This document shows, one piece after another, positions 1-64,000 of a stretch of 64,000 nt of DNA. The stretch comes from Eledone cirrhosa. Lineage: Eukaryota. Position numbers and translations under genes: made by a program. The stretch spans positions 305,412,001 through 305,476,000 of the forward strand of contig OZ024741.1 of assembly GCA_964016885.1 (NCBI GenBank), given 5' to 3'. A model generated the notes under the pieces. The model was given only the letters and a program-made list of their open reading frames with translations, was not told the origin of the DNA and did no database searches. How positions within the stretch are numbered: the first letter of the stretch is position 1; the number at the start of each line of letters is the position of its first letter.

Positions 1-3000
1 TGTCTTCGTGTCTTTTAACCACCCGGCTAGGTCTGTAGACGGGTGGTTATCGTATTTTTACCCCTTTTGGAGGTAAAAACTACTCCCAAAAATTTTTGCT
101 GACTCACATGGTAAAAAATTGACGCCATGTCTGTAGCACGTGTGAACGAAAACGCCACGCTCACTAAGGAAGAAGAGAGAAAGAAGCAAGTGGTACAAAG
201 CGTTTTGCTTTCCCGCGTCAACATTTTAAAAGACTTTGTAAAAGGCGATATGCCGGACAAACAAGTAAATACGGGTGCAAACCCAATTAATTACAACGAA
301 AACACTAACAATGACAAAACCAACACACCAAATGAGAAAGACAACAACAACAAAAATGAAAATTACTCAAACTACGAGAAACAGAACAACTCAAACACCA
401 ACAACGAAAACAAAATATCTTTTGCACAGACTGCTAAAATATCAGTCACCTATGTGCTTGAGGATATAACAAATGCAAAAGAAATGCTTGAAAAAGCAAA
501 AGAATATGTATCTTTTGGCGAAAATGGATCTTTTTCCATCAATTCGCTCCCAGAACTAAAAAAACAGACGGAATTACGAACTGTTGTATTGCCAACAAAA
601 CAAGAAAACCAGCACAACCATCTCAAGCTGAAATTCAGTTGGTCCTGAAAGAGGCTATGAAAGACATCATTTTCATACAAAAGGATAAACTCTATGGGAG
701 TTTATCCATATTGATGAAAGACGAATTGGCGGCGAAAAAATACTCTGTGTCGCCAATTCGTTCCACACATTACATCTTTTTTCCAACCTACATGGGTAAA
801 AAAAGCCAAAGAATTTGGATAACCACCATCACCCCAAACATAAACTACTGGTGGTTACTAACCGGTTTCCTCAACTTGGACGAGGACAACCTTATATCAA
901 TAGGGAAGGCATCTGGCGACGCATTCAGTGGAACGAGCATTGAAGTTCTGACCCAAATAAGGCCAGAACGTATCGCCCAAATCCCTGAACGCGTCATGCT
1001 GGATGACCGTACCCACCTCAACATTATTGTGGAGGGTAGGCATCCCTCCTGTTACCTGTGGCAACAGAGGTCACCTGAGGGCTGCCTTTCCCCAGCTCAC
1101 CGTAAAAACCATTGCTACCAACACCCCAACAACAACATCAAAAACAGCCAACACCACCACCACCCCAACAACAACAACAACCACAACAACAACAACAAAA
1201 ACCAACAACACCACCACCACGATAACAACAAACTTGTGAAAAAACAACACAGAACACTGTCCCACTCAACCCCTCCCCACCCAAAACAAATACAAAAACA
1301 CACACACCGCAAACACTACCAGAAAATATACCCCTCCCACCCAACAAGGAAGACGAACCCCTTTCGTCGCAAGACGAAAAAGATCCCTTCCAAATAGTAA
1401 AAAGAAAGAAGAGGAGGCGCACCACAGACACACTTATTAACATAAACCCTCCCCAAGAGAAAACAAACTATATACATGGAGGCACATGGCTTAGTGGTTA
1501 GAGCATTGGCCTTGCAATCGAAAGGTTGTAAGTTCAATTCTCAGACCGGGTGATATGTTGTTTCCTTGAGCAAGACACTTTATTTCATGTTGCTCCAGTT
1601 TACTCAGCTGTAGAAATGAGATGATAGGGACTGGGGTCCCTATCATTCCACTGCAAAGTGGTCGTGGAGGTGCCACGGCAAAAAAGCACCCAGCACTCAC
1701 TGTAAATGAGGTTGGTGTTAGGAAGGGCATCCAGCTGTAGAAATCAAGCCAGAATCAGTTCCCGTCCCACCCTTGCAAGCAGGGAAAAGTGGACGTAAAA
1801 TGAAATGATGATGATGATACAAACCACCCCTCTTCGTGACACATCACTAACTGCAATGCAAAAAAAGACTTTACAATATACATACATGAACACAAACAAC
1901 AAAGAACTAATGAACACAATTTCGTCAAACCCTTCAGTCCAAACTGAAGGGCCTAACTTTCTAACTGCTGTGAGACTACCTCATTTACAAATGATTAAAG
2001 TCCCAATGAACTTATACAAAACGTTGAAAATAAATTTCATGGAGGACATGGGCTCCCCCCTGCACGAAGCCAATCAACCGCGTCCTCCTAAAAAATTTCC
2101 CCACCTCCTACCCAGACACCCACTCAACTACAAACACCGCAACCCCACAACACACTGATGCCCCTACACTTCCACAAACCACCACCACACCCAACAACCC
2201 ATCCCAAACCTCATGGAAATTGAGCGGCCCGCTCCCCGGGACGCAGAGAGGTAAGTGCCTTTTCTCCTTACCACCAACATGGCTGTGCTAAGAGTAGGGT
2301 GTCTAAATGTGCGTGGCCTGGGCTCACTTTGGAAGCAAGCAATGCTTCTAAATGACCTCAGGTCACGATCTATAAATGTGATGGTTATCTGCGAGGCCCG
2401 GATCAGCAGCGTGCGACAGCTAGCCCCCACCTTTGATGACTTTGAGATGCATGCATCTCTCTGTCAGCCCGGAGATGGGGGTGGGGTTGTTGTTCTGCTG
2501 CAAAAACATCTGGGTCTCGCCACACAGATAGTTCACTTGGACCCAGGGGGTCGACTGGTGGTGCTGGACCTTGGCAGTGGTGAAGGTGGAGCCTTTAGGC
2601 TGGTAGCCGCATATGCCCCTTTTGGGACAGAGCGGCCCGACTTCTTCCAACGTCTGGAGTCTTTTCTAGGGACGTCCCGTTCCCTGCTTTTAGTGGGGGA
2701 CTGGAATGGTATTCTGGATGCACGTTGGGACTATGCAGGGGCATGTCCCGATAGCGAGGGGTGCAACAGCCTCAAGGGGTTACTCGGCCGATTTGACCTG
2801 GCCGATAGATTTCGACTAGATTTTCCGACAGTGCCAACCTGGTCTTGGACAAATCGCAGTGGTCAATCTAGATCGTACCTAGGTTCTTAGTTAGAAATAA
2901 GGACAGGGACTTTTTAAGTTGGGCCCGCGTGACAGAAGCCAAGAGTGGAACTAAATCCACCATCCAGTCTTTGCGAGACCAGGATGGACGGGTGATCCTT

Positions 3001-3900
3001 GAACCTAAGCAGATGTGTGAGGCCTTTCAAAGGCACTTTGCCGGATTGTTCGGAAGGGGCGGGGAGCCGGTTGGGGAAGTGGACTTCGGTCCATACCTCG
3101 ACGGCCTGCCGCGTCTTTCGGACGAGGAGGCGAAGTCCTGCGAGGAGCCGATTTCAGCCGCTGAGATAGAGGACGTGCTGAGCCAATGCGGCAAACGCAA
3201 ATCCCCGAGTCTCGATGGTCTTCCATACGAACTATATCTAGCTATGCCGGACTTGTTCCCCGATCTCCTCGAGGCGGTCTACTGCAACTGGCAACAGAAC
3301 GGGAGAATTCCCTGTTCTGTGACCAAAGGCGTAGTCACACTAGTGAGGAAGGACGAGAACAAGGGGGACGAAATAAGTAACTTCAGGCCCATAACTCTGC
3401 TAAATACAGAGTTACAGATTTTGGCCAAGGTGCTAGCAAAGAGGTTGGCGCTTGTCGTGGGCAACTTGGTGGGAGATGCGCAGACATGTGCTATCACGTC
3501 CAGGTCCATCCATGACAACCTCCACCTCATGCGATACATCATAGAGAGGTTTGGGAACGAATCCGGCTTTGGTGGGGCCCTGATCAACTTGGATCAATCT
3601 AAGGCTTCGATAGGGTCGACCATGGTTACCTGGATGCGGTGCTAGCAGCGGCAGGCTTCGGACCCGTTTTCAGGGGCTGGATCACTGCTATGCACAGCAG
3701 CCGCATCTGCTCTAGAGTCAAGGTGAACGGCTAGCTCTCGGAGCCGTTCGAAATCGCGCGGTCCATTCGACAAGTATCCTCCCTTCTGTATGTATTGACT
3801 CTCGAACCACTACTGCGGAAGTTGGAGTTGTTGCAGGGCATCCCTTTGGAACCGGGATTGCGGAAAGCGGTGTCGGCCTACGCCGATGACGTGACAATAA
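1..3900 (+). mobile_element. Degenerate Tx1/L1-clade LINE (frameshifted ORF1 from 127 to about 2254; ORF2 relic 2279-3897; 3' end lost)
   Basis: ORF1 pieces (FFPTYMGKK..RIWI, HLNIIVEGRHPSCYL) align by eye to ORF1 at 40643 (MYPSHMGKRIARVRI, LHIMTEGKRPHCFLC). ORF2 has APE motifs (VGCLNVRGL, ICEAR, AYAP, VGDWNG) and RT motifs (NFRPITLLN, LDQSKA, YADD near 3880). It has an internal deletion near 2920, stops and frameshifts. Confidence 0.9.
1476..1819 (+). mobile_element. tRNA-derived SINE with CORE-like central domain and RTE-derived 3' tail, inserted in Tx1 ORF1
   Basis: A-box-like tggcttagtgg and B-box-like gttcaattc; ccttgagcaagacact...cagtttactcagctgtagaaatg core; tail nearly identical to RTE 3' UTR at 31080-31350; ends in (GAT)n; second copy at 20457. 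Confidence 0.85.
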
Positions 3901-4214
3901 TCCACTTTTTAACAATTTTATACTTTATTGCACTTTTATAATTTTCTTTAGGTATTACTCTTTATTTTATAATTTTAATTTAACCTGAAACATATATAAA
4001 AAAATCATTTAACATAAGCAAATTAAACTTACATACAACGTAAAATCCAGCATACAAATAATTCTAGTGAATAGCTTAGAATTTTTACAAACCCAAACTT
4101 TTAACTGTTTAATAGCACTTTTTTTATTTATTTGGGACCTAAGCAACACAAAAAAAGTGATTACAAGCCAGGAACAGAGAAAAATTTTTTTTTTGATACA
4201 CGGTGTAATAGGAC

Positions 4215-4397
4215 CAACCAGTTCCACACTGTAAATGTGATTGGTGTTAGGAAGGGCATCCAGCTGTAACAGTCCCTGCCAAAATACAGTTCCGTTTGAG
4301 CAAGGTAAGGCGTGGCCAGCTGGCCAGACTTGTCTCATTACGTGGATGACCCGTCTAACTCATGCAAGCATGGAAAAATAGACATTAAACGGTGATG

Positions 4398-16569: not shown

Positions 16570-18970
16570 TCATCATCATCATCATCATCACCGTTTTACG
16601 TCCGTTCTTCCATGCTAGCATGGGTTAGACGGGTTGTCCTGTTGTAGGCAGTGTCTGGTCGGCTGATTATGCCTTGCTCATACAGGAACTGATTTTGACT
16701 TGATTTCTACAGCTGGATGCCCTTCCTAACATCAACCTCATTTACAGTGAGTGCTGGGTGCTTTTTTCCGTGGCACCTACACGTCCACTTTACAGTGTGG
16801 GATGGGTGCTTTTTTGCTGTGGCACCTCCACGACCACTTTGCAGGGGGAGTGGGGGGGGGGGCATATTGTCTATATGCTTCATCTTGTACCCATGGGAGG
16901 TCGGGTACTCTGTATTACTGCGAGACGCCAGAGGTCATGGTCGTGTGTCATCGCCTTTGAGAGGTGTAATTGGGTAAGGTCGGCTTTTATCACCTCATCC
17001 TAGGTCTTCTTGGGTCTCCCCACTCCGCGGTTTCCATTGACTTCTAGTGCTCTGCACCTTTTTATGCAGCTGTCATCCTTCATACGCATCACATGTCCAT
17101 ACCAATGCAACCGCCTCTCCTGCACACAGCATTTGATTCCTCTTATGCTCAATCTCTCTCTCAATTCATTTATGCTTTGCCGTTCGCGTATATTACTATT
17201 ACACATCCATCGGAGCATGCAGGCTTCGTTTCTTTCTAATCTACGTAAGCCTTCCACCTTCAGCGCCCAGGTCTCACTACCATGTAACATTGATGTTCGG
17301 ATACACGCATCATACAGTCTGCCTTTCATTTTGAGGGAGAAGCCTTTTGCAGCTAGCAGTGGCAGTAGTTCCCTGAACTTCTTCCATCCCATTCTTACCC
17401 TAGTTATTGTACTTTCTGAACACCCACCTCCGCTGCTAATTCGGTCACCTAGGTAGCAGAAGCTGTCTACTGTTTCTACAGAGCCCTCCCAGAGATTGGT
17501 GGTACTTGTTTCCTGTGGCTGTTTGCTGCTTGCTGTCCCAGCACAGCTGCTACATGTGAAGCCTACATTCTTAATTAAGCTTCCTGAGATCCCGCTACAT
17601 CTCTTGTGTACCCATTGTTTGCATTTGGGGCAGAGAATGGAGTTCCTACCTACACCTTTCCTACATACTGAGCAAGGCCATTTCCCTGAGGGGATCTGAG
17701 TTCTGTTTTCTCGTCTACTTACAAGGACCTTAGTCTTTGTCATGTTGACTTTGAGACCCTTTCTTTCTAGTCCCTGCTTCCAAGTTTGGAATTTCTTCTC
17801 TAGTTCTACCATAGATTCAGCTATAAGTGCGAGGTCATCTGCATACAGGAGTTCCCATGGGCATCCGGTCTTAAACTCCTCCGTTATTGCCTGCAGGACT
17901 ATGATGAACAGGAGAGGGCTAAGAACAGAGCCCTGGTGGACACCAACCTGTACGCTAAATTCCTCGCTATACTCATTGCTAATCCTAACTTTGCTGACTA
18001 CTCCCCTATACATGGCTTGTACAGCTTTCACAAGCCATTCATCTACTCCTAGTTTTCTAAGAGCCCACCAGATTATAGCACGTGGAACTCAAAGACTTTC
18101 TCGAGATCGACGAATGCCAGGTAGAGTGGCTTACTTTTAGCTAGGTACTTTTCCTGCAACTGCCTCACAGGAAGAGGGCATCAGTGGTGCCTCTTCCTGG
18201 TACAAACCCAAATTGCATCTCATCTAGTTTCACCCGGTCCCTAATCAACTGTGCTATAACTCTTTCTGTTACTTTCATGACCTGGACCATCAGCTTTATA
18301 CCTCTATAGTTTCCTCTATCTAGTGCATCACTTTTACCTTTGTAACAGTTGACAATGATGCTGCTGCACCAATCTTTTGGTATGACACCTAGTATTACCT
18401 GGTTAACAATATGTGTGGTTATAGTGTGACCTACAGACCCAGATGCCTTCAGCATCTCGGCAGCTATACCCGATGGACCAGTTGCCTTCCCCATCTTCAT
18501 ATCTTTGATTGCCTTACTTACTACGCTGCTGCTGACTTGTACTGCTGGCCCCTCTATAGGGTCTACTTAGGGTAGGGTCTCTTCTTCCCATGCGTTCTCC
18601 TCATTTAGTAATCTATCATAATGGCTCTTCCATGCATCTTTCTTCTCAGCACTTGTGAGGGCAAGCTCACCTTTATCATTCCGGATACACTTCTCTCCAA
18701 TGACATCACAATTCTCTCTGACACACTGCCTCGCAATCCTGAACACCTCCAGTTTCTGGTCCTCACGTTGCAAAACATGCTTGAATTTTTTATCCTCTGC
18801 TTCCCTCCTAGCTAAGTCTCTATGTAATGTACCCTGCTTGGTCTCTATGTAATGTACCCGGCTTCCCCCGTTCTTCCATTCTTTCCATGCCTGTCTCTTG
18901 GCCTTAACTGCCTCATCTACCTTATTGTTCCACCACCAAGCCCTCCTGCTTGTGGTCTTATTCATTCCAC
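16570..18970 (-). mobile_element. 5'-truncated RTE LINE, second subfamily, with RT, PHD insert and (GAT)n tail
   Basis: ORFs 18965-18567, 18500-18165 and 18031-17000 (WWWN, KATGPSG, NYRGIKL, LYADD, RRLHWYGHVMRM); (CAT)n at 16570-16590. Confidence 0.93.
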
Positions 18971-37335: not shown

Positions 37336-40143
37336 ACCAGAACAACCTGCCACCCTCTACACACCATCATAAACTACGAGCAGGGTACAAATTGTTGTCC
37401 TTAAATGCTCGCAGTTTATGCAACAAGATACATCTGTTCGAATCCTACGTCAGAGGCATCGACCCTGACTTCATCACAGTCACGGAAACATGGGCACATT
37501 CCTTACTCTGTGATGGGGTTTTCAGCATTACTGGGTACAACCTTTTCCGCAAGGACCGCATTAACCGCCGTGGTGGTGGTGTGATGGTCTACGTTCGTTC
37601 AAACTTTTCGGTAATTCCTTGCGTTGATTTGAACGAATCACAGGAAGAAGTTTTTTTCTATGACATACGTATGACCATGTCAACACTTCTGCTTGGTGTT
37701 GTTTATCACCCCTCAAACTACCATCAGGACACACAGCTTTGCGATATCCTCAGAGTTGCTGCCAAGAAAACAGCCACTTATGTGTTTATTGCAGGTGACT
37801 TCAATCATCCTGAGATCGATTGGGAAACCTTTTGTTGGCCACAAGGTGCAAACGATTTCCTTGAACTAGTGCTGGACTCAAACTGGTCACAAGTAGTCAC
37901 CTCTCCAACAAGAGGTGACAACACTTTGGACCTGATCTTCACCACTACTCCTGAAGTGGTTATCAGTTGTACTACCGAGGAACCTCTAGGCGACTCTGAT
38001 CATGCTATGATCATTGCCAATCTGGCACTTGAGGGCAGCAACAAAAACCAGAGTCATCTCCAATCTGCTTGCTTTGATTGGAAGAGGGCGGATTGGAACT
38101 TGTACTGCACTGAGCTGCAGCGCCCAAACTGGCATGAGATGTATAACTCTGGAGATGTGAACTCTATACTCCAGAGCATCCTGGACTCAATATGGATAGC
38201 GTGTGCAGCATCAGTGCCACGGAAGCGGAAAAATAACCACCCCAAAAGTGCAATCTGGGAAACTTCAGCGGTCCGACTTGCCAGGAAAGAACGTCGGAAC
38301 GCTGAACGGGAATATAAACTGCATAAATCAGATGCCAACAGAAAAAAGCGGAATAAATCTTCTAACCATCTCAAGCAAGTGACAAAGAAGGCAGTGCTTG
38401 AATTTGAACAGTGCATCGCAACCAATCCTGACAGTAAGGTGTTCTGGAAATATGTTCATTCAAAGCAGAGACCTCACTCTCCAGTTGGTCCTCTTCGCAA
38501 TCCCCACACAAGCCAGATCACTGATGATCCCAAGGAATGCGCAGAACTCATTGCTGAGTGCTATGCAAGTATTTTTACTGTTGAAAACCAGAATGTACCA
38601 TCTCTAACATCAAATTCCATAACAACTATGGAATTTACACCTGCAATGTTGCGACGTCACCTTAAGAATAAGCGCAACTATGCCTCCCCTGGTCTTGATG
38701 GTGTGACATACCTGCTTCTCAAACGTGGCGGGTATTTCCTTTTGCGCCAGCTTTCTTCTTTCAATACTGTCTCAACAATGGTGCTACTCCGGAGCAGTGG
38801 AAAACTGCCAGTGTCATTCCCCTGTTCAAAAAGGGCAACCGCATGTCACCTGTCAACTATCGTCCAGTCAGTCTTACTAGCTGTATGGCCAAACTGATGG
38901 AATCCTGTGTCAGAGAAACACTTTGGAACTTCTGGAGCTCTCACAGCCTCATCTGGCCCTCACAGTTTGGATTTATCCCTAACTCCAGCTGCTGTGATCA
39001 GCTTATCGAGTTCCTTGAGGACATCACCCGGATCACTGACAGCGGCTCATGGGTGGATGTTGTTTACCTTGACTTTGCTAAGGCTTTTAATTCTGTGCCA
39101 CACAAAAGGCTTATGGCAAAACTCTCTGCAATGGGTGTGAGGGATGATCTTTTCGACTGGTTGAAATCCTTCATTCTCAGCCGAAAAGAAGTAGTCACGG
39201 TTCTGGGTCAGCATTCTTCACCATATGAGATGTCATCTGGTGTACCACAGGGATCTGTTCTTGGTCCTCTTTTGTTTGTGGCATATATTAATGACATAGA
39301 TGCCAACTTACAGAATGCCACGGTACTAAAATATGCAGATGATACCAAGCTGTACCTTGAAATCAAAAGGACTGATCCTGAAATTTACAACTCTTTCCTA
39401 CAATCAGACCTGGACACAATGCAGCAATGGATCACAGACTGGCAACTGAAGCTGGCTGTGGACAAGTGTACCACCATGCATTTTGGAAGGAAAAATCCAG
39501 CGTCCACATACTCCCTCCACAACACTGATATCAAAAAGTCCTCTTGTGAACGTGACCTGGGCATTACTGTCAGCAACGATTTGCGTTGGACAAAGCATGT
39601 CTCTAAGATTGTCAAGAAGGCCGAGGGTGTCTTGGCATCACTCAGCAAGACCTTTGTTAGCTGCTCTCCAGCCATCTATTTAAAACTGTATACAGCTATG
39701 GTGCGACCACACTTGGAATTCGCATCATCAGTCTGGAACCCCTATCTTGCTCAGAACATTGACCTCCTGGAAACTGTTCAGAGACGTGCAACCAAGCGCA
39801 TACCCTCCATCAGACACCTACCATACTCTGAACGCCTTGCTTCCCTGGGCATGGATTCATTGAAGCTCCGACGTCTGCAATGGACTTGGTGAATACCCAC
39901 AAAGTTTTTAACCATCTCGCCAATTGCAACCCTGAGCGCCTCTTTGATCTCCATGTGTCTAACACACGTGGACATGCCTACAAGATCAGAAAACAGCACA
40001 GCTCCCATGACTTTCGTAGACATTTTTTCACGCTCAGAGTTGCTGAAGCATGGAACAAACTGCCTGCGTCAATTGTTAGCTGCCGAGACACTGCATCCTT
40101 TAAGACACTCATGCTTCCCGAAATACGCCAAAACTACACCTGA
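37326..40143 (+). pseudogene. CR1 ORF2 (APE + RT) with two frameshifts and no initiator ATG
   Basis: SLNARSL, VTETW, GGGV, GDFN, SDH; LDFAKAF, GVPQGSVLGPLLF, YADD. Frameshifts near 38755 (4-nt loss versus the copy at 5690) and near 39878 (1-nt loss versus the copy at 23120). Confidence 0.9.
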
Positions 40144-52100: not shown

Positions 52101-53378
52101 TATTTCTAAATCTCCCCAAATTCGTGATTATACTCAAAATTATTTGAAAATCATTGGCAGTATCTTTCATTAGAAATATGGTAGCGAAAGGGTTGAGTTA
52201 CAGCACTCATACTTCATTGGAAAAGACATGAATGTCACAAAATCTGCATCTTTGGTGTTGCATCCATACTAGGAACCATGGGTGGCAATGTGGCAGAGTT
52301 GTTAGAGTGTTGGACACAAAATATCTTGTCTTATTTGTTGTGGCTCTCTACAGTCTGAATTCAAATCAAGCTGAGTTTAACTTTGCCTTTCGTCACATTG
52401 GAGTTTGATAAAGTGCCTACCCTGTTATGGTGTACTCCTCCACCCTCTCTTCACCTGCCACAATGTGGATGTTCCACTGACTCAATTGTAAGATGGTAGC
52501 CATGAAAGTGTTTGTGTCTGCTCACAATTACTTGAGCACCCAAAACCACAAGTGACATATACCATAACGCTGAAATGGCTATATCTGATCGATGCTGATG
52601 ATGAATGGTTTAAATATAGTTGAACATATTGACCTGACAAGTGTATTTCTTCAGAAATGACACAAAAATCAATAGTGCCTGAATATTGATGACCATTATG
52701 TGAATAAACTACAGAATAGAATGGTCTTCCATCAGTTTCAAAAATGGTCGTAAAATTAATGTTCAGGTGGCTGAGAATTCCACAGATGTTGAAGAAGTGC
52801 CAGGAAATGCCAGTGGATGGAAGCCATAGTGAGGTAGACCAAGAAAGACCTGGGCAGAGGTGGTGAGAGCTGACCTCAAATTGCTGAGAGTCACAGAGGA
52901 GATGACGAAGAAACATGCAAGTGGAGAAATGCTGTGCTGAAAAGGACCCATCCCCCATGCAGGTGTGGAAAAACAGACGTAAAAATGATGTAAATGATGA
53001 TGATGATGATGACGTTCCCTTAATATAATTTTCAGGTATAGATCATCTGAAGGTCTTCCAAATAGTTTCTGTCTACCCAATTTTGCTCACAATGCTTTGG
53101 CCAACTAATGGTAAATGACACTTGTCCAAGAACACAAGCAATGAGATTGAACCCAGAATCTTATGATTGCAAAAAACTTCTTAATCATTTGACTATACTG
53201 CATCTACAAGTAAACATTAGTTATCATCATCATCATCTCCGTTTAACATCCATTTTTCCACACTGGGATGGGTTAGATGAGTTATCCTGTTGTGAGCAAT
53301 GCCAGGTCAGAACTGATTTTGGCTTGGTTTCTACAGCTAGATGCCCTTCCAAGCGCCAACCTCATTTACAATGAGTGC

Positions 53379-53668
53379 TGGGTGCTTTTTGTCATGATAC
53401 CTACACAACCACTTTACAGTGTAGGCGGTACTTTTTGTTGTGACACCTACATGACCACTTTACAATGTGGACTGGCTTTTTTGCCGTGACACCTACACTA
53501 GCATTTTACAGTGTGGGCTGGGTGCTTTTTTGCCGGGACACCTACACAACCACTTTACAGTGTGGACTAGCTGCTTTTTTGCCGTGACACCTGCATGACC
53601 ATTTTACAGTGTAGGCTGGGCGCTTTTTTGCCATGTCACCGTCACAACCACTTTACATTGTGGACTGG
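53379..53668 (-). repeat. Minisatellite of about 48 bp (about 6 diverged units) within an RTE-type 3' tail
   Basis: Unit tgggtgcttttt(t)gccgtgacacctacacaaccactttacagtgtggac; the same unit occurs in fewer copies in RTE 3' UTRs at 16755-16840, 31090-31180 and 55375-55470. Confidence 0.85.
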
Positions 53669-54834: not shown

Positions 54835-55976
54835 ATTTGCGTTATACTGCATTTTATCCACTGAGGAATCTTGTCCTCTCAGTCACTTAATGCCAATGAA
54901 ACAGGGATAAGTTCCAGCGTGATGAGTCACCAGGCTTGGGACAGACTAACCTTACCTTAATAATAAAGATATTTATTATATCAACTCTAGCAATAAAAGG
55001 TAAAGCTGATTCCAACAGTAATTAACCTATTTAATATTACAACTTGATTTCTACTGCAATTTCTGTAAAGACTCATCCAAATAAAATAGCCATTAGAAAC
55101 AAAAAAAATTTAGAAGCGTATTAATGGCCAAGGTTTTAGAGGATAGTATTCATCATCATCATCATTATTATCACCATTATCATCACCATCATCATCATTA
55201 TCATCATCATCATCATTTAATGTATTTTTTCCATGCTAGCATGGGTTAGACAGAGTTTGTCCCATTAGAAGCAGGTTGAGTCAGGTGACCGTGTCTCGCT
55301 TATATAGGACTGCTTTTGGCTGGTTTGCTATGGCTGGATGTCCTTCCTAAAGCCAACCACTTTTACAGTGCATGTTGGGTGCTTTTTGCCATGTCTCCTA
55401 CATGACCACTTTACAGTGTGGACTGGGTGCTTTTTGTCGTGACACCTACACAACCACTTTAAAGTGTGGGCTGAATGGTTTTGTGATACCAGCATAACTT
55501 TACAGAGTAAGGGTGGTGTGGGCGGAAGTGAGAGGGTGGTGTAGGGGTATGGGAGGTGTATACTGGATTAAGAGGTGCCTACAGGGTGTACGTTTGAGTC
55601 TGTGCACAAGGGAAGGCAGGTCTTCTGTATTACCGCATAACACCAAAGATCTCGATCCTGTTACAAGAAAGAATGAACAATCCCTTTTGTTGATATGACT
55701 GAGTTCAATGCTATCTGTATATGGTTTGTCTCTTTTTCTAAAATTTATGGTTACTTTTGACTAGCCATCTTCCCAGCAGCAAAGTTGGAAAGGAAAGGAC
55801 ATTTCCATCATTCCTTGTGCAATCGTCCATCCTTTCAATTGCTAGAATATTTTACTGACTTTAAAGGTTCCTTTTATAGCTGAATTAAGGAGCTGCTTTC
55901 TTTCACCAAGAACCCAAGTTCAGCCATACTTTGGTCTAAGTGAGATGTATGTATGTATGTATGTATGTATGTATGT

Positions 55977-57297
55977 TCTCTCATTCTCTTAATTTCGAGT
56001 ATATTTTTGACCGGCCACCTTCCTGGTGGCAAGGTTGTAATAGAAAAGAAATTGTCATCCCTTGAATCGCAAGAATGTTTTGCAAATTTTGAAGGTGCCA
56101 GCTATTGCAGCCATTTGTAGACTATGAATTAGGGAGCTGCGCTCTTTGTCCGCAAATCCAAGTTCAGTCATACTTTGGCCCAAACGGGTTGGTATATAAC
56201 CCGTAGCTCCAATAATGATGGGTATGAAGCTAAAGGTGTATCTTGGATACTGGATTTGTAAACTCCTCATCAATGGTCTGTAGATGTCCTCCTTCTCCTG
56301 TATTTTTCTGACAACGTTACATCAAGTGGGCAGCTGATCTCCACAACAGAACACGTTTTCAATGTGTGGTCCCAAACAACACTAGGCCAGTTGTGCTTTA
56401 ATTTGGTGGCAGTTTTTATTTTCAGGTTCCACCAGTATTTCTTAGTGCCATCTGTCTCAATATATTATTCTTCCTTGTTTGTTTTTAATTTTGTTTTCCA
56501 AAGTGCATTCCAGATGGTTCTAGCTATCCCATCGTGTCTCATGGGGAGGTAGTAGCGAGATGACATTCTTTCGCAGCTGGCAACAATGTGGCTTACATCC
56601 TCGATCTTTGTTTTACATAGCCTACATTTATTGTCAGCTGATGGCCCTCCTCTTTTGTGCAGCAGATATTTGGTAGGGAGTTCTTGTTCCTGTATTGCAT
56701 AGAGATATCCCTCAAGGTGTGATGTCATAAACTTGTCGGAACTCCATGCCAGGCTTTTTGAGTGGTTTATCCCCTCTATGGTCTGTGTTTTACATCTCAA
56801 GTATCCATGCACAACTTTTTCTGTAAATTGGTCAATTTTTTCATCTTGTTTGAACATTGAATAGGATCTTCCGATTTCTCTGGGTGAGAGATTTATATCA
56901 GGCTTTATTCCATATCTCTCCTCCATATCAGTGGCTATCCTAATGACATTTTTTTCTTCATGCTCATAAACCTGGGCAAGATGGTTGCCAACCTTTTTCC
57001 TCTGTTGAAGATGTTGCTTCAGTGTTACTATCCGGGTCTCATATGTTGTTATTATGGATTTTAGACCCCGGCCACCTTCCTTGCGTGAGAAGTATAGCCT
57101 ATCCACATCGCCATTGATGTTAAAGTTCCCAGTAACACTGAGAAGTTTGCGAGTTCCATCTCACTTAGTTCTTGCAATGACCAGTTCAGCAGGCCAAATG
57201 TTGGCGTTAGAATTGGCACAGCATAAGTATTGTGGGTAATGTACTTGTACGCTGACAGTTCTGATGACCATATTTTCTTTACTCTTCTGAGGTATTC
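55977..57297 (-). mobile_element. 5'-truncated R4/Dong-like LINE with restriction-like endonuclease
   Basis: DRLYFSRKEGGRGL, AIQEQEL, CRLCKTKIEDVSHIVASC (CCHC), RHD, VVEISCP, IPIIIGATG; (ATGT)n on both sides. Confidence 0.88.
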
Positions 57298-57328
<31 letters not shown>

Positions 57329-57399
57329 TGTATGTATGTATGTATGTATGTATGTATGTATGTATGTATGTATGCATGTATGTATGCATCTATGTATGT
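57298..57399. repeat. (ATGT)n microsatellite between the R4/Dong-like elements
   Basis: Direct tetranucleotide run; shorter runs at 55945-55976 and from 58451. Confidence 0.95.
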
Positions 57400-58450
57400 T
57401 CTTCTGGTTTTATAATTTCACAAATTTTTACCAATAGAGAGAGAGTTGGTTTCTAACATAGACACAAGACTCTCTCATTGGAATTTACACAACATCAACT
57501 AGGTAGATTATGTATGCATGCATGTGTAGATATGGATGTTATTGTATGTGTGGATGTGTATGTTTTGAGTTGTATGTGTGCATGTGTATATGCTTTGTAT
57601 CTGTACATGTGTATATGCAGTTATTAGATGCAACATTTTTGGAATGTTTTACATATTTTTACTGTTCCATTAATGGATTGTACTTGTAATTTCCTAACTA
57701 GTTGTGTTCTTTCTGTTCCTGTGAAGCCTAGCTTCTCAAGATTTGTAGTGAGGCAGTTACTAACATACCCCAGTGCCCCAATAATCACAGGCATAAATCT
57801 GAAGGTGTAATCAGGGTGGCGTATCTGCAAATTTCTCATCAGTTCTGCATAAATATTCTCCTTTTCGCTAATCTTTGATATTATATTGACATCTGCTGAG
57901 CAGCTAATTTCCACTACTGTGCATGTTTTCTTCTCCCTGTCCCATATCATAATATCTGGTCTGTTATGCCTGCATTTTATTGGGGTTTTTACTGGAACAT
58001 TCCACCAGTACTCTTTCAAATTATGTATATGGATGTCTTCCATATTGCTGTAGCTTTTAACGTGTTTATTATCGGGGATATCTTTTCTACGGATTACATT
58101 GTACAGTGTTTTGGCCACTACATCATGCCTCAGATAGATAGTACCGCGATGACATCTTTGGGCAGTTGCTGATGACATGGGTGACATCTTCGATGTTAAT
58201 TCTGCAGAGTCTGCACTTGTTATCACATCTAGGTGTTTTGCCTGCATCCCTATCTCTTTTGTGAATCAGGTATTTCGTGTTGATTTCCTGTTCTTGGATT
58301 GCAAAAGCATATCCTTCAAAGTGGGAGCCAATATAGCGGTTGTTGGTCCAAGATAGACTACTTTCCTTATCTATATTACTCTCACTCTGGAGCTTCCTGG
58401 CAACATATCCATGCATGATTTTTTGCTGATAAGCATGCACTTTTTCATCC
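57400..58450 (-). mobile_element. Second, divergent 5'-truncated R4/Dong-like LINE
   Basis: HFEGYAFAIQEQEI, CRLCRINIEDVTHVISNC, RHDVVA, HNRPDIMIWD...VVEISC...KENIY, PVIIGALG; frameshift near 58130. Confidence 0.88.
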
Positions 58451-58621
58451 ATATGTATGTATGTAGGCATAGATGTCATTGTACGTGTATAGCTGTATGT
58501 TCTGAGTTACATGTGCACATATACATACGTTTCTATATCTGTACTTGTGTATGTATGTATGCATGTATGTTTGAAGAGTCCTCATGATATATATATATGT
58601 GTATATATATATATATATATA

Positions 58622-58740: not shown

Positions 58741-58773
58741 TATATATATATAAATAAGACTATTATATATATA

Positions 58774-59364
58774 TAAATAAGACTATTAATAATAATAGAG
58801 AGGTAAGGTGTATATAATGATTTCAGCATTTTAAAACTTCTAATATATATATATATATATATTAGAAAGTGAGGTTTTTTTTACAAAATGAAAAATAACC
58901 AAGGTGTCCTACACGAGTGAAAGTATAAAAAAAAAAAATGAAATCGAAAATGCAACTGGAGTCTTATTTTTTAAAAAATATATATATTTATTTGGTTCCT
59001 TTACCGGTTTCGCAGTTCTTCTGCTTTTCAAAAGTAGAGTTGAGATGGAGGGTCTGTGCTTTTTCTCACATGTGAGAAAAACGACAGACCCTCATCTCAA
59101 ATTTACTTTTGAAGAACTGCGAAACCAGTAAAGGAACCAAATAAATATATATATTTAAAAAACAAATAAGACTCCAGTTGCATTTTCGATTTCATCTTTT
59201 TTTCTTTATACTTTCACTCGTGTAGGACACCTCGGTTATTTTTCATTTTGCAAAAAAAACCTCACTTTCTAATATATATATATATATATATATATTAGAA
59301 GTTTTAAAATGCTGAAATCATTATATACACCTTACCTCTCTATTATTATTAATAGTCTTATTTA
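58774..59364. repeat. Near-perfect spacerless palindrome of about 590 bp
   Basis: Centre ctcaca|tgtgag at 59070/59071; arms are reverse complements, including internal (TA)n; the ORF track gives identical MLKSLYTPYLSIIINSLIY on both strands. Confidence 0.93.
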
Positions 59365-60200
59365 CATGAACACGATTGACATGTGCAGCCAGGTTGCAAG
59401 TGGTATCATGATTACAGGTGTAAAATCAGTTGACTGGAATTCGCAGACGACATGGTGTTACTTAACTCGACAGAAGGTGATCTCTCACTTGCACTTGATA
59501 GGTTTGATGCTGAGTGCTGCATGGCTGGAATGAAAATCAGTGCTGTGAACACTGAGACACTCACCCTCACAAGGAAGCCTGTGCAGTACACTCTACATGT
59601 AAATGGAGTTCTGCTGAAGCAGGTAGAGAAGTTGAAGTATCTCAGGGCCATGTTCACAAGTGATGGAAGGCAAGAGGCTAAATTAAGTGCAAGAATTGGT
59701 GGAGCTGGTGCATTACTGCACCAGCTTCAGCATTCAGTAATCAGAAGGTGTAAAAGTCAAACTGGTACTCTGTCAAACCCGCAAAGACTAGACTTATTGA
59801 GAGGCCGCCTACATCACTGGGTTGTGAGAGCTTTCTTGGGAGCCGCAGGTGTCATCCATTGCTCTATCTCCCCTAGTAGTTTACCATAGTTGGTCTGAGG
59901 TTGCTTATTCATCTGGCAGTTCCCCGCTTATGTTGCAACTAACCATCATATCTGGTGGCTGTATCACTATCCACCACCTGTGACCCATTCTCTAGCAGAA
60001 CAGCTCTGCTGAGAAACCAACAAGTAGGAGACCCAGGGGTAGACCCCGAGCAAGATGGTTGCATAACATCCATGAGCTTGGTTGGTCATGCTTGGGGAGA
60101 CAGTTGCTTCTGACAAGACCTGCTGGCGGGAGTGTTTGATGACTCTGCCCCCACAACCCTCTCAGGAATAAGTGGGCAGAGGAAAGGAGAAGAAGAAGAA
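59365..60200 (+). mobile_element. Degenerate RTE 3' fragment (no PHD), same family as 46285-49100, ending in (GAA)n
   Basis: EFADDMVLL...GMKIS...LKQVEKLKYL; RPRGRPRARW-like end near 60030; 59890-59995 resembles 48985-49085. Confidence 0.75.
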
Positions 60201-61413: not shown

Positions 61414-64000
61414 GAAGAATGCACCTCCCAACATAGACTGATAATTAGCGACCTAATAGTCAGGACGAGACGTACTAGACAACAGAAGAGGACTATCCTC
61501 AGGAGAAAAATATGGAAGCTAAAGGACCCCACAGCCAGAAATAAATTCAAAAGTATACTACTTGATGTTTTCGACAGTAAGGCAGAGCAATTAGAGTCGT
61601 ACAATATAGAGGAGCAGTGGGAATTCCTGAAAGCAAACCTACTGATGGCGGCAGACGAAGTCTGTGGCTGGAGCAGGCCTGTAGGCAGGAGGAGAGTAAC
61701 ATGGTGGTGGAACAGTAAGGTGGAGGGGTCAATTAAGGCCAAAAAGCAGGCTTGGAAAGTATGGCGGGATGGGGGAAGCAGAGAAGACTATCAAGTGGCC
61801 AGGAGGGAAGCTAGGAGACAAGTGTACTTCGCAAGAAGGGAAGCAGAGGAAAGAAAGTTCAAGCATGTTCTACAACGCGAGGACCAAAAACGTGAGGTGT
61901 TCAGGATTGCTAGGCAATGTGTCAAGGAAAACCGTGATATTGTCGGGGAGAAGTGTGTACTTAATGATGACAGCGTACTTGCCATCACCGACGCTGATAA
62001 GAAGGTAGCTTGAAAATGTCACTATGAAAGGCTACTAAATGAGGAGAATAAATGGGAGAAAGACAGTCTCCCCCACATCGACCCAATAGAGGGACCAGCA
62101 GTGTTAGTCGAGGGTAGTATAATAAGTAAGGCAATCAAAGATATGAAGACGGGTAAGGCGGCTGGGCCTTCGGAAATAGTTGCCGAGATGCTGAAGGCAT
62201 CTGGTACGGTGGGACACACCATGGTCACCCGGATAGTTAACCAAGTCATACAGAATGGGGTTGTTCCGAAGGACTGGCGTAGCAGCATCATCGTTAACTG
62301 TTATAAGGGTAAAGAAGATGCCCTAGATAGGAGTAACTATAGAGGCATTAAATTAATCGACCAGGTCATGAAGGTCACGGAAAAAGTAATAGCGCAATTA
62401 ATCAGAGAGAGAATTGATCTAGATGAAATGCAGTTTGGGTTTGTGTCAGGCAAAAGTACCATAGACGCTCTTTTCATTGTACGACAACTACAGGAGAAGT
62501 ACCTAGCTAAAAGTAAACCCCTATACTTAGCTTTTGTCGACTTGGAGAAAGCCTTCGACAGAGTCCCCCGTTCCATTATCTGGTGGGCTCTTAGAAAACT
62601 AGGTGTTGACGAATGGCTTGTGAGAGCTATACAAGCCATGTATAAAGAAACAGTCAGCAAGGTTAGAATTAACAACGAATATAGTGAAGAGTTTAGCGTA
62701 AAAGTTGGCGTCCATCAGGGCTCTGTTCTCAACCCCCTACTATTTATTATTGCCCTTCAGGCTATAACAGAGGAGTTCAAGACCGGTTGCCCATGGGAAC
62801 TCCTATACGCAGATGACCTAACACTCATAGCTGAATCAATGGCCGAGCTAGAGAAGAAATTCCAAACATGGAAGCACGGCCTAGAATCAAAAGGCCTTAA
62901 AATTAACCTGGCTAAGACTAAAGTTCTAGGTTGTAAGAAAGAAAATAAGGCGGCGGTCCCTTCCGGGAAGTGGCCATGCTCAGTGTGTAGGAAAGGCGTA
63001 GGTAGAAACTCCATTTTATGTCCCAAATGCAAAGTATGGGTGCATAAAAGATGTAGTGGGATCACAGGTAAGCTAACTAAGAACATAGATTTTACATGTG
63101 GCCGGTGCTCTGGTGCAATAAGTAGCAGCAAGTGCCCACAAAATACTAGCTCTTTCAACTGCGCAGAGGGTTCTATAGAAATAGTGGACAGCTTCCGTTA
63201 CCTGGGTGACAAAATCAGCAGTGGGGGAGGGTGCTCTGAAAGTACAGTAGCTAGAGTCAGAACTGGATGGAAAAAGTTCAGAGAGCTTATACCACTATTA
63301 GCCGCTAAAGGGTTCTCCCTAAAAATGAAAGGCAGGCTGTATGATGCCTGCATACGAACAGCAATGTTGCATGGCAGTGAGACCTGGGCATTGTGTGCAG
63401 AGGATATACATAATGTAAAGGCAGACTAGAGAGAAACGAAGCTTGCATGCTCCGCTAGATGTGTAATAGTAATATACGTGAACGGCAAAGCCTAAACGAA
63501 CTAAGGAAAAAATTAGAAATAAGAGGGATCAGATGTTGTTTACTCGAGAGAAGGCTACGTTGGTATGGTCACGTGATGCGCATGAAGGATGATAGCTGTA
63601 TAACAAAGTGCAGGGCAATAAAGATAGACGGTAGCCACGGAATAGGCAGACCCAGAAAAACCTGGGACGAGCTGATAAATTCCGACCTCACACACTTACA
63701 CCTCACCAAGACAATGTCACTGGACCGAGACCTTTGGCGGTACTCAGTAATAGAGAAGACCCGCCTTACCTAAATACAAAGTAAAACCTACTACAATCAG
63801 TAGGCATCTCTAACAAAATACACCCCCGTCCCACCACCCCCACCTCATCCACACCGCCCCTTTCAATGTAAAGTTATGTTGGTGCCACAAAATCCAGACC
63901 GAAACAAATGAGATCGTGTAGGTGTCACGAAAAAAAAAACACACAGTTCACGCTGTAATGTGGCCGTGTAGGCAACACGGAAAAAACCTCCCAGCCCCAC
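61414..64000 (+). mobile_element. 5'-truncated RTE LINE with PHD insert; runs off the window end
   Basis: Starts after (TA)n; WWWN, NYRGIKL, FVDLEKAFDRV, LYADD; nonsense codon at 62011, 11-bp insertion at 63410-63420, second nonsense codon near 63456. Confidence 0.93.

What the first reader, a model, noticed from the sequence alone, without database searches (positions are those of the whole stretch)
55850..58470. Tandem R4/Dong-like retrotransposons all inserted in an (ATAC)n microsatellite
Seen: two divergent restriction-like-endonuclease LINEs (55977-57297, 57400-58450) and a third small relic (about 55850-55944, similar to 56090-56185) lie head to tail in the same orientation, separated by (ATGT)n runs. 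On the element strand both 3' junctions read ...gaac|atacata and both 5' junctions read acatacatat|g. Known: RLE-type LINEs are often site-specific, and Dong targets (TAA)n. Inference: a lineage that specifically targets (ATAC)n, a target I do not recall for this clade.
Basis: partly seen in the sequence, partly recalled or inferred. Interest (0 to 1): 0.75.

Follow-up and report, generated by a model that had tools for sequence, protein, structure and literature searches.

The report
CATA-repeat-targeting Dong-like retrotransposons
Three front-truncated copies of jumping genes sit stacked between CATA repeats, and across this probably octopus genome most sampled copies of their two families have that repeat at both ends and face the same way, likely because they insert into it on purpose, a landing site we did not find reported for this group, whose known members use TAA repeats or ribosomal DNA.

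Summary
Confirmed. E1 (family A, ~4.2 kb full length), E2 (family B, ~4.1 kb) and an old A-lineage relic lie head to tail, separated by (ACAT)n. Among sampled 5'-truncated copies, (ACAT)n flanks the 5' end in 39 of 48 A and 42 of 56 B copies, at 101 different truncation points; background is 89 of 4000. The reverse orientation never occurs, so the repeat is a target and not only a tail. The protein is single-ORF RT + CCHC + RLE with a predicted N-terminal Myb-like fold. A and B group with (CTTA)n-flanked relatives, apart from the TAA-flanked Dong-like group, which includes a third family in this genome. A and B are not one exclusive clade. RTE-like elements share the repeat on the opposite strand. 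Dong-R4 is reported in octopus without a target, and ACAY is a known target of the unrelated Waldo. Repbase, Dfam and Fell 2025 could not be checked. This scan reported the same feature several times on other DNA of this genome. Verdict: new target variant of a known kind.

The parts
55729..55944 (-). Old 5'-truncated relic of the family-A lineage (RLE C-terminus and 3' UTR)
   Evidence: blastn to full-length A copy L071: 81% over 59 nt and 69% over 89 nt, ending at the A 3' end; best other genomic matches 68-88%, most about 70%
55945..55976 (-). (ACAT)8 target repeat, between the 3' end of E1 and the 5' end of the relic
55977..57298 (-). E1: 5'-truncated family-A RLE LINE (positions ~2891-4234 of the 4234-nt copy L071, 94% identical); frameshifted, PD motif broken
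56567..56764 (-). CCHC zinc-knuckle region of E1
   Evidence: Pfam zf-RVT E 1.1e-7
57299..57399 (-). (ACAT)~25 target repeat between E2 and E1
57400..58451 (-). E2: 5'-truncated family-B RLE LINE (positions ~3052-4116 of the 4116-nt copy L104, 94% identical); one frameshift near 58134
57642..58133 (-). RLE domain of E2 (RH, RPD..E, K..Y motifs)
   Evidence: translation, tblastn, motif comparison with PMC4838377 passages
58452..58570 (-). 5' flank of E2: short perfect (ACAT)3, then a decayed ACAT/AT-type tract

Best explanation
These are 5'-truncated copies of two single-ORF restriction-like-endonuclease retrotransposon families of the Dong/R4 type that sit inside (ACAT)n microsatellites in one fixed orientation, likely because their protein recognises and nicks that repeat. 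Inferred steps, by analogy with R2: an N-terminal Myb-like domain and the RLE bind (ACAT/ATGT)n; the ATGT strand is nicked and primes reverse transcription at the RNA 3' end, which gives the fixed 3' register; the 5' join is looser, in any phase, with short microhomologies or extra bases. Each insertion leaves repeat on both sides, so later copies can land beside earlier ones and build the same-orientation stacks seen here. In the window the relic is far more diverged than E1 and E2, so it likely came first.
For: Shown: 5' flank ACAT in 39 of 48 truncated A and 42 of 56 truncated B copies, at 48 and 53 distinct truncation points, against 89 of 4000 random positions. Full-length 5' ends: 20 of 20 and 19 of 20. 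3' flank: 46 of 55 and 73 of 84. Reverse orientation: 0 of 115 5' flanks and 0 of 140 3' flanks. 3' register: B 71 of 71 'A' then C in 64 of 71; A second base A in 47 of 48, then ACAT. The next sequence downstream is another A/B piece in 38 of 136 cases, all 38 on the same strand; no A/B hit in 200 kb of random DNA. Architecture: RVT_1 and zf-RVT; the best fold matches of the nearest named relative (P0202, Argonauta) are R2 proteins, E 2e-32; RH, PD..E and the first lysine of K..KY are kept; the family-A N-terminus folds as three helices and most top matches are Myb/SANT domains, Z up to 5.8. Target follows family within one genome: TAA-type family C has AAT runs at 20 of 20 3' ends and 7 of 7 visible 5' ends (read by eye).
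Against: No cleavage or binding data, and no orthologous empty site was seen. 9 of 48 and 14 of 56 truncated copies lack a 12-nt ACAT run at the 5' end, and at least one (L075) lies in pure (AT)n. An unrelated RTE-like family also sits in the repeat on the other strand (11 of 16 visible 5' flanks), which a mechanism without a dedicated DNA-reading protein would also explain. The Myb-like match has only middling Z-scores and no Foldseek hit at E<=0.001. Samples are the best-scoring tens of 640-2078 candidates per search, so young copies are over-represented.
Confidence: 0.7

Rival explanations
1. Targeting is real but RNA-guided: transcripts read through into the downstream repeat, and the ACAU tail pairs with nicked or broken ATGT strands, with a weakly specific endonuclease.
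For: Explains both flanks, the strict orientation and the fixed 3' register equally well. An RTE-like family ending in ATGT occupies the same repeats on the opposite strand. Microhomology of 2 nt or more at 5' joins is enriched, 16 of 38 against 19% by chance, p 0.001.
Against: The Myb-like N-terminus and RLE catalytic residues are conserved across the clade. Diverged relics of the A lineage still show decayed ACAT-type flanks in several cases, which suggests stable specificity.
Confidence: 0.22
2. The repeat is only the element's own tail, or the tail of a neighbouring element, and tandem stacking creates the look of a 5' target.
For: 34 of 112 upstream flanks end in another Dong piece.
Against: With those removed, 27 of 34 A and 32 of 44 B copies still have ACAT 5' flanks. 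A tail cannot appear at 101 different internal truncation points. Landing in a neighbour's tail is itself targeting.
Confidence: 0.04
3. Random insertion followed by passive retention in microsatellite-rich, neutral DNA.
For: The genome is rich in simple repeats: AT arrays 7% and ACAT arrays 0.3% of 200 kb sampled.
Against: Retention would not fix orientation (0 reverse cases) or 3' register, nor favour ACAT over the far commoner AT repeat (AT-only 5' flanks 3 of 104).
Confidence: 0.04

Closest known systems
Dong (Bombyx mori), DongAg, DongBg, Darwinula Dong1/2 (R4 clade)
   Same: Single ORF with RT and RLE, microsatellite target, divergent N-terminal Myb/SANT-like domain without zinc fingers (PMC7998251 passages).
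   Different: Target (ACAT)n instead of (TAA)n. A and B fall in a separate, well-supported group from the TAA-flanked elements (about 31-33% protein identity). The second lysine of K..KY is replaced. No Rfam ribozyme hit at the 5' end, whereas Dong has an HDV-like ribozyme (PMC3774820 passages).
Dong-R4 LINEs of Octopus vulgaris and O. bimaculoides
   Same: Abundant Dong-R4 families are annotated in octopus: 51 consensus families, 92.7 Mb (PMC13282606 supplement row); one Dong element in PMC9115989. A and B are probably among or close to them (inference).
   Different: No target sequence is given in the passages and supplements searched. Sequences could not be compared.
Waldo (WaldoAg1/2, WaldoFs1; R1 clade)
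   Same: Target ACAY microsatellites (PMC3812793 passage), which include ACAT.
   Different: APE-type endonuclease, unrelated clade; the shared target would be convergent.
R2 (R2Bm, R2Tg, R2Pm)
   Same: Closest solved structures; same RT-CCHC-RLE layout.
   Different: R2 has N-terminal zinc fingers and targets 28S rDNA; 16-17% identity in the fold alignment.

Membership tests
RLE-type (R2 group) non-LTR retrotransposon | Single ORF with RT, CCHC and C-terminal PD-(D/E)xK endonuclease | tested here: met
   P0001 919-aa open frame with RVT_1 E 1e-19 and zf-RVT; RH, PD..E, K..Y motifs; fold match of P0202 to R2
RLE-type (R2 group) non-LTR retrotransposon | Common 3' end with variable 5' truncation | tested here: met
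R4/Dong clade | N-terminal divergent Myb/SANT-like domain, no N-terminal zinc fingers | tested here: inconclusive
   Three-helix model, pLDDT 83.5; most top matches Myb/SANT, best Z 5.8, below the tool's trust level. No zinc-finger motif seen by eye in N-terminal translations.
R4/Dong clade | RT phylogeny groups with named R4, Dong or Rex6 | tested here: inconclusive
   No named reference sequence was obtainable. A/B group apart from TAA-flanked and lepidopteran proteins, and the fork joining the two groups with a third is unresolved.
R4/Dong clade | Insertion into rDNA or microsatellite targets | tested here: met
Dong in the narrow sense | (TAA)n target | tested here: not met
   TAA at 0 of 104 truncated 5' flanks; a separate TAA family exists in the same genome
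Dong in the narrow sense | 5' HDV-like self-cleaving ribozyme | tested here: inconclusive
   No ribozyme family among Rfam matches at E<=5; the 5' ends of A and B fold better than shuffles, z about -2.5
R2 clade | 28S rDNA target and N-terminal zinc fingers | tested here: not met
   flanks are microsatellite; N-terminus
HERO clade | RT phylogeny with named HERO elements | not testable with these tools
   no named HERO sequence available
Waldo (R1 clade) | N-terminal APE endonuclease | tested here: not met
   C-terminal RLE; no endonuclease family of that kind among the Pfam hits listed for the alignment members

The most novel reading that the evidence does not exclude
A distinct, old branch of the R4/Dong group has moved from TAA to four-letter targets and has switched target within the branch (CATA in octopods, CTTA elsewhere). 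It shares the CATA repeat, strand by strand, with an RTE family that is also repeat-targeted. Each insertion multiplies landing sites, so the guild may help build the host's microsatellite landscape, and the TAA/CATA/CTTA series is a natural panel for finding how a zinc-finger-less Myb + RLE protein reads its target.
Probability: 0.45. Interest if true: 0.6.

Novelty: new variant of a known kind. Interest (0 to 1): 0.42.

Why it matters
How RLE retrotransposons change target is an open question with practical weight, because R2-type proteins are being developed for site-specific gene insertion. Families with TAA and CATA targets in one genome, plus CTTA relatives one base away, make domain-swap tests straightforward. 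It would also explain where a large, recently active part of the octopus repeat content lands, and why standard insertion callers may miss it (inference).

Tried and rejected
Empty sites: laying four public runs on the window gave no joint across an element, and the tool skipped the repeats. A search of flank pairs among held loci gave 23 of 107 hits that were self-matches or analogous, not orthologous, arrangements. Expression: no RNA holder listed, which is no evidence either way. Other species: runs labelled as other organisms hold family A, but their junctions were not readable. Ribozyme: no Rfam ribozyme hit. Named Dong/R4/Rex6 references: three protein searches and one cluster look-up gave none. 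Foldseek on the N-terminal model gave nothing at E<=0.001. A protein search for further families returned family B in all 25 loci examined of 150 scored, so other targets in this genome were not surveyed. The idea that RTE tails build the landing sites was weakened: the RTE-like copies have repeat at their 5' ends too. A fixed 5' cut register was rejected. A+B as one clade was rejected, p-AU 0.002, but the group was named after seeing the tree. Papers not held: Fell 2025, Biedler 2015, Burke 1995.

Full report
Setting. The window is G000:C2:305412001-305476000 in a 3.0-Gb chromosome-scale animal genome. The closest named protein to family A is from Argonauta hians, 59% identical, so the host is probably an octopod (inference).

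Observation. Two RLE-LINE 3' fragments and a relic lie on the minus strand, separated by ATGT runs. The three perfect ATGT arrays of the 64-kb window all abut them. The relic spans 55729-55944, longer than stated; its best genomic relatives are mostly about 70% identical, and several of the 14 other loci show decayed ACAT-type flanks by eye.

Families. DNA searches with the 3' ends gave 2078 (A) and 1690 (B) candidates, of which 40 each were scored. I extended 49 loci upstream. Full-length copies are 4234 nt (A, L071) and 4116 nt (B, L104 as first delimited; its true 5' end is a few bases longer). A and B are 52% identical over 723 aa. L069 gave a 919-aa open frame with RVT_1 and zf-RVT; its best PDB sequence hits are R2 proteins. 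The model of the Argonauta relative (pLDDT 85) matches R2 structures first. The family-A N-terminus folds as three helices and most of its top matches are Myb/SANT domains at Z 4.3-5.8, which is suggestive only but fits the domain described for R4/Dong (PMC7998251 passages). RH, PD..E and the first lysine of K..KY are kept, and the second lysine is replaced in A and B; the first lysine is the catalytic one in R2Bm (PMC4838377 passages).

Target test. I scored a 30-nt junction window for an ACAT run of at least 12 nt with at most one mismatch, on 55 A and 85 B copies, including bystander copies in the fetched loci. One B duplicate was dropped later, and copies whose 5' end lay outside the locus (4 A, 21 B) were not scored at 5'. 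Truncated copies: 39 of 48 A and 42 of 56 B have ACAT 5' flanks, at 48 and 53 distinct positions; 3' flanks 46 of 55 and 73 of 84. Background: 89 of 4000 positions in twenty 10-kb stretches chosen by round coordinates. ATGT in sense orientation: 0 of 115 and 0 of 140. Full-length 5' ends from separate searches (best 20 of 640 and of 1698 candidates, each set including the query copy): 20 of 20 and 19 of 20. Leaving out copies whose upstream neighbour is a Dong end: 27 of 34 and 32 of 44. The repeat is therefore a target, not only a tail. The sample favours young copies.

Junctions. The 3' register is fixed. At 5' joins of truncated copies (67 readable) all four phases occur; 29 have extra bases, 14 are blunt and 24 overlap; overlaps of 2 nt or more are enriched, 16 of 38 against 19% by chance. 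In 38 of 136 cases the next sequence downstream is another A/B piece, always on the same strand, while 200 kb of random DNA held none.

Relatives and tree. A metagenome scan kept 80 loci; I inspected 20. Three at 46-48% identity lie in (CTTA)n (L156 both ends, L155 5', L159 3'; they may not be independent), 14 at about 27-37% have TAA-type runs after the 3' end, and 3 show no repeat. A TAA-flanked family C exists in the own genome: 20 of 20 3' ends and 7 of 7 visible 5' ends. In a 52-row tree (quick IQ-TREE, RTE outgroup) A, B and the CTTA elements share a 16-row group (SH-aLRT 100) inside a 25-row group (100), apart from a 22-row group (99) holding all TAA-flanked rows, family C and lepidopteran proteins; the fork joining these groups is unresolved and long branches meet near the root. 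A+B+Argonauta as one clade is rejected (p-AU 0.002, group named after seeing the tree). So CATA is either ancestral in this subclade with a shift to CTTA, or arose twice. No named Dong, R4, Rex6 or HERO sequence was available, so clade membership is by proxy.

Co-tenants. Downstream of the 3' repeat, 16 and 10 of 136 copies meet the 3' ends of two reverse-strand families. One encodes RT and C-terminal zinc fingers of RTE type (the label is recalled, not from a family library) and has ATGT at 11 of 16 visible 5' ends, ACAT at none. The other is a ~607-nt non-coding element with ATGT or AT runs at 23 of 25 5' ends. They look like co-tenants rather than builders of the repeat.

Mechanism. Shown: target repeat, orientation, 3' register, stacking, domain content. 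Inferred: protein-specified nicking of the ATGT strand and target-primed reverse transcription (0.7). The main rival is RNA-tail-guided priming (0.22), which these data cannot exclude.

Literature. Dong targets TAA and Waldo targets ACAY (PMC3812793, passages). The Dong target is TAA in 'most' insects, molluscs and cnidarians (PMC7998251, passages). HERO and Togen families include other microsatellite targets (PMC4640811, passages). Dong-R4 is reported in cephalopods with no target in what I saw: PMC13282606 (first third of the text, passages, one supplement), PMC9115989 (passages; 8 supplements searched and 4 not searched, which may bear on this), PMC10294476 (passages). Also read as passages: PMC5035012, PMC13586686, PMC3774820, PMC5786205, and one reference line of PMC12649098. 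Ten full-text searches listed no paper that reports a CATA/ACAT target for an RLE element; most listed papers were seen only as listings. Kojima and Fujiwara 2004, Fell 2025, Repbase and Dfam were not seen, so prior annotation remains quite possible.

Earlier scan notes. Searches showed notes on TAA-sharing Dong and Tx1 families, which prompted the family-C control. One search, made after my analyses, showed seven notes describing the same CATA targeting elsewhere in this genome. They are unchecked AI notes and not independent support.

Verdict. Real, with strong genomic evidence for a target specificity; a new variant of a known kind; interest 0.42.

Noticed in passing
L280-L304 (G000); e.g. 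L298: An RTE-like LINE family sits in the same repeat on the opposite strand, ATGT at 11 of 16 visible 5' ends.
   Followed up: partly
L255-L279 (G000): A very young ~607-nt non-coding element with an RTE-like 3' end lies in AT/ATGT arrays, some over 1.3 kb long.
   Followed up: partly
L155, L156, L159 (metagenome contigs): Relatives at 46-48% identity are flanked by (CTTA)n, one base different from CATA.
   Followed up: partly
L085:3378-8001: A TAA-type Dong-like element lies in the opposite orientation between two pieces of a family-B copy, with an AAT run at its 5' end.
   Followed up: partly
window 58771-59367: A ~600-bp near-perfect inverted-repeat (foldback/MITE-like) element just upstream of the stack.
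   Followed up: no
L071:1860-1990 and L342:1485-1620: 5' ends of A and B fold better than shuffles (z about -2.5) but match no Rfam ribozyme.
   Followed up: partly
window 38789-39505 and 62035-62970: Other, distant reverse-transcriptase fragments, 20-28% identical to family A.
   Followed up: no
window 16741-16844, 53357-53668, 55354-55473: A recurring 48-49-bp tandem unit, probably part of a dispersed short repeat.
   Followed up: no
G000:C28:61403034-61410775: Four RLE C-terminal hits within 8 kb on one strand, a longer tandem stack.
   Followed up: no
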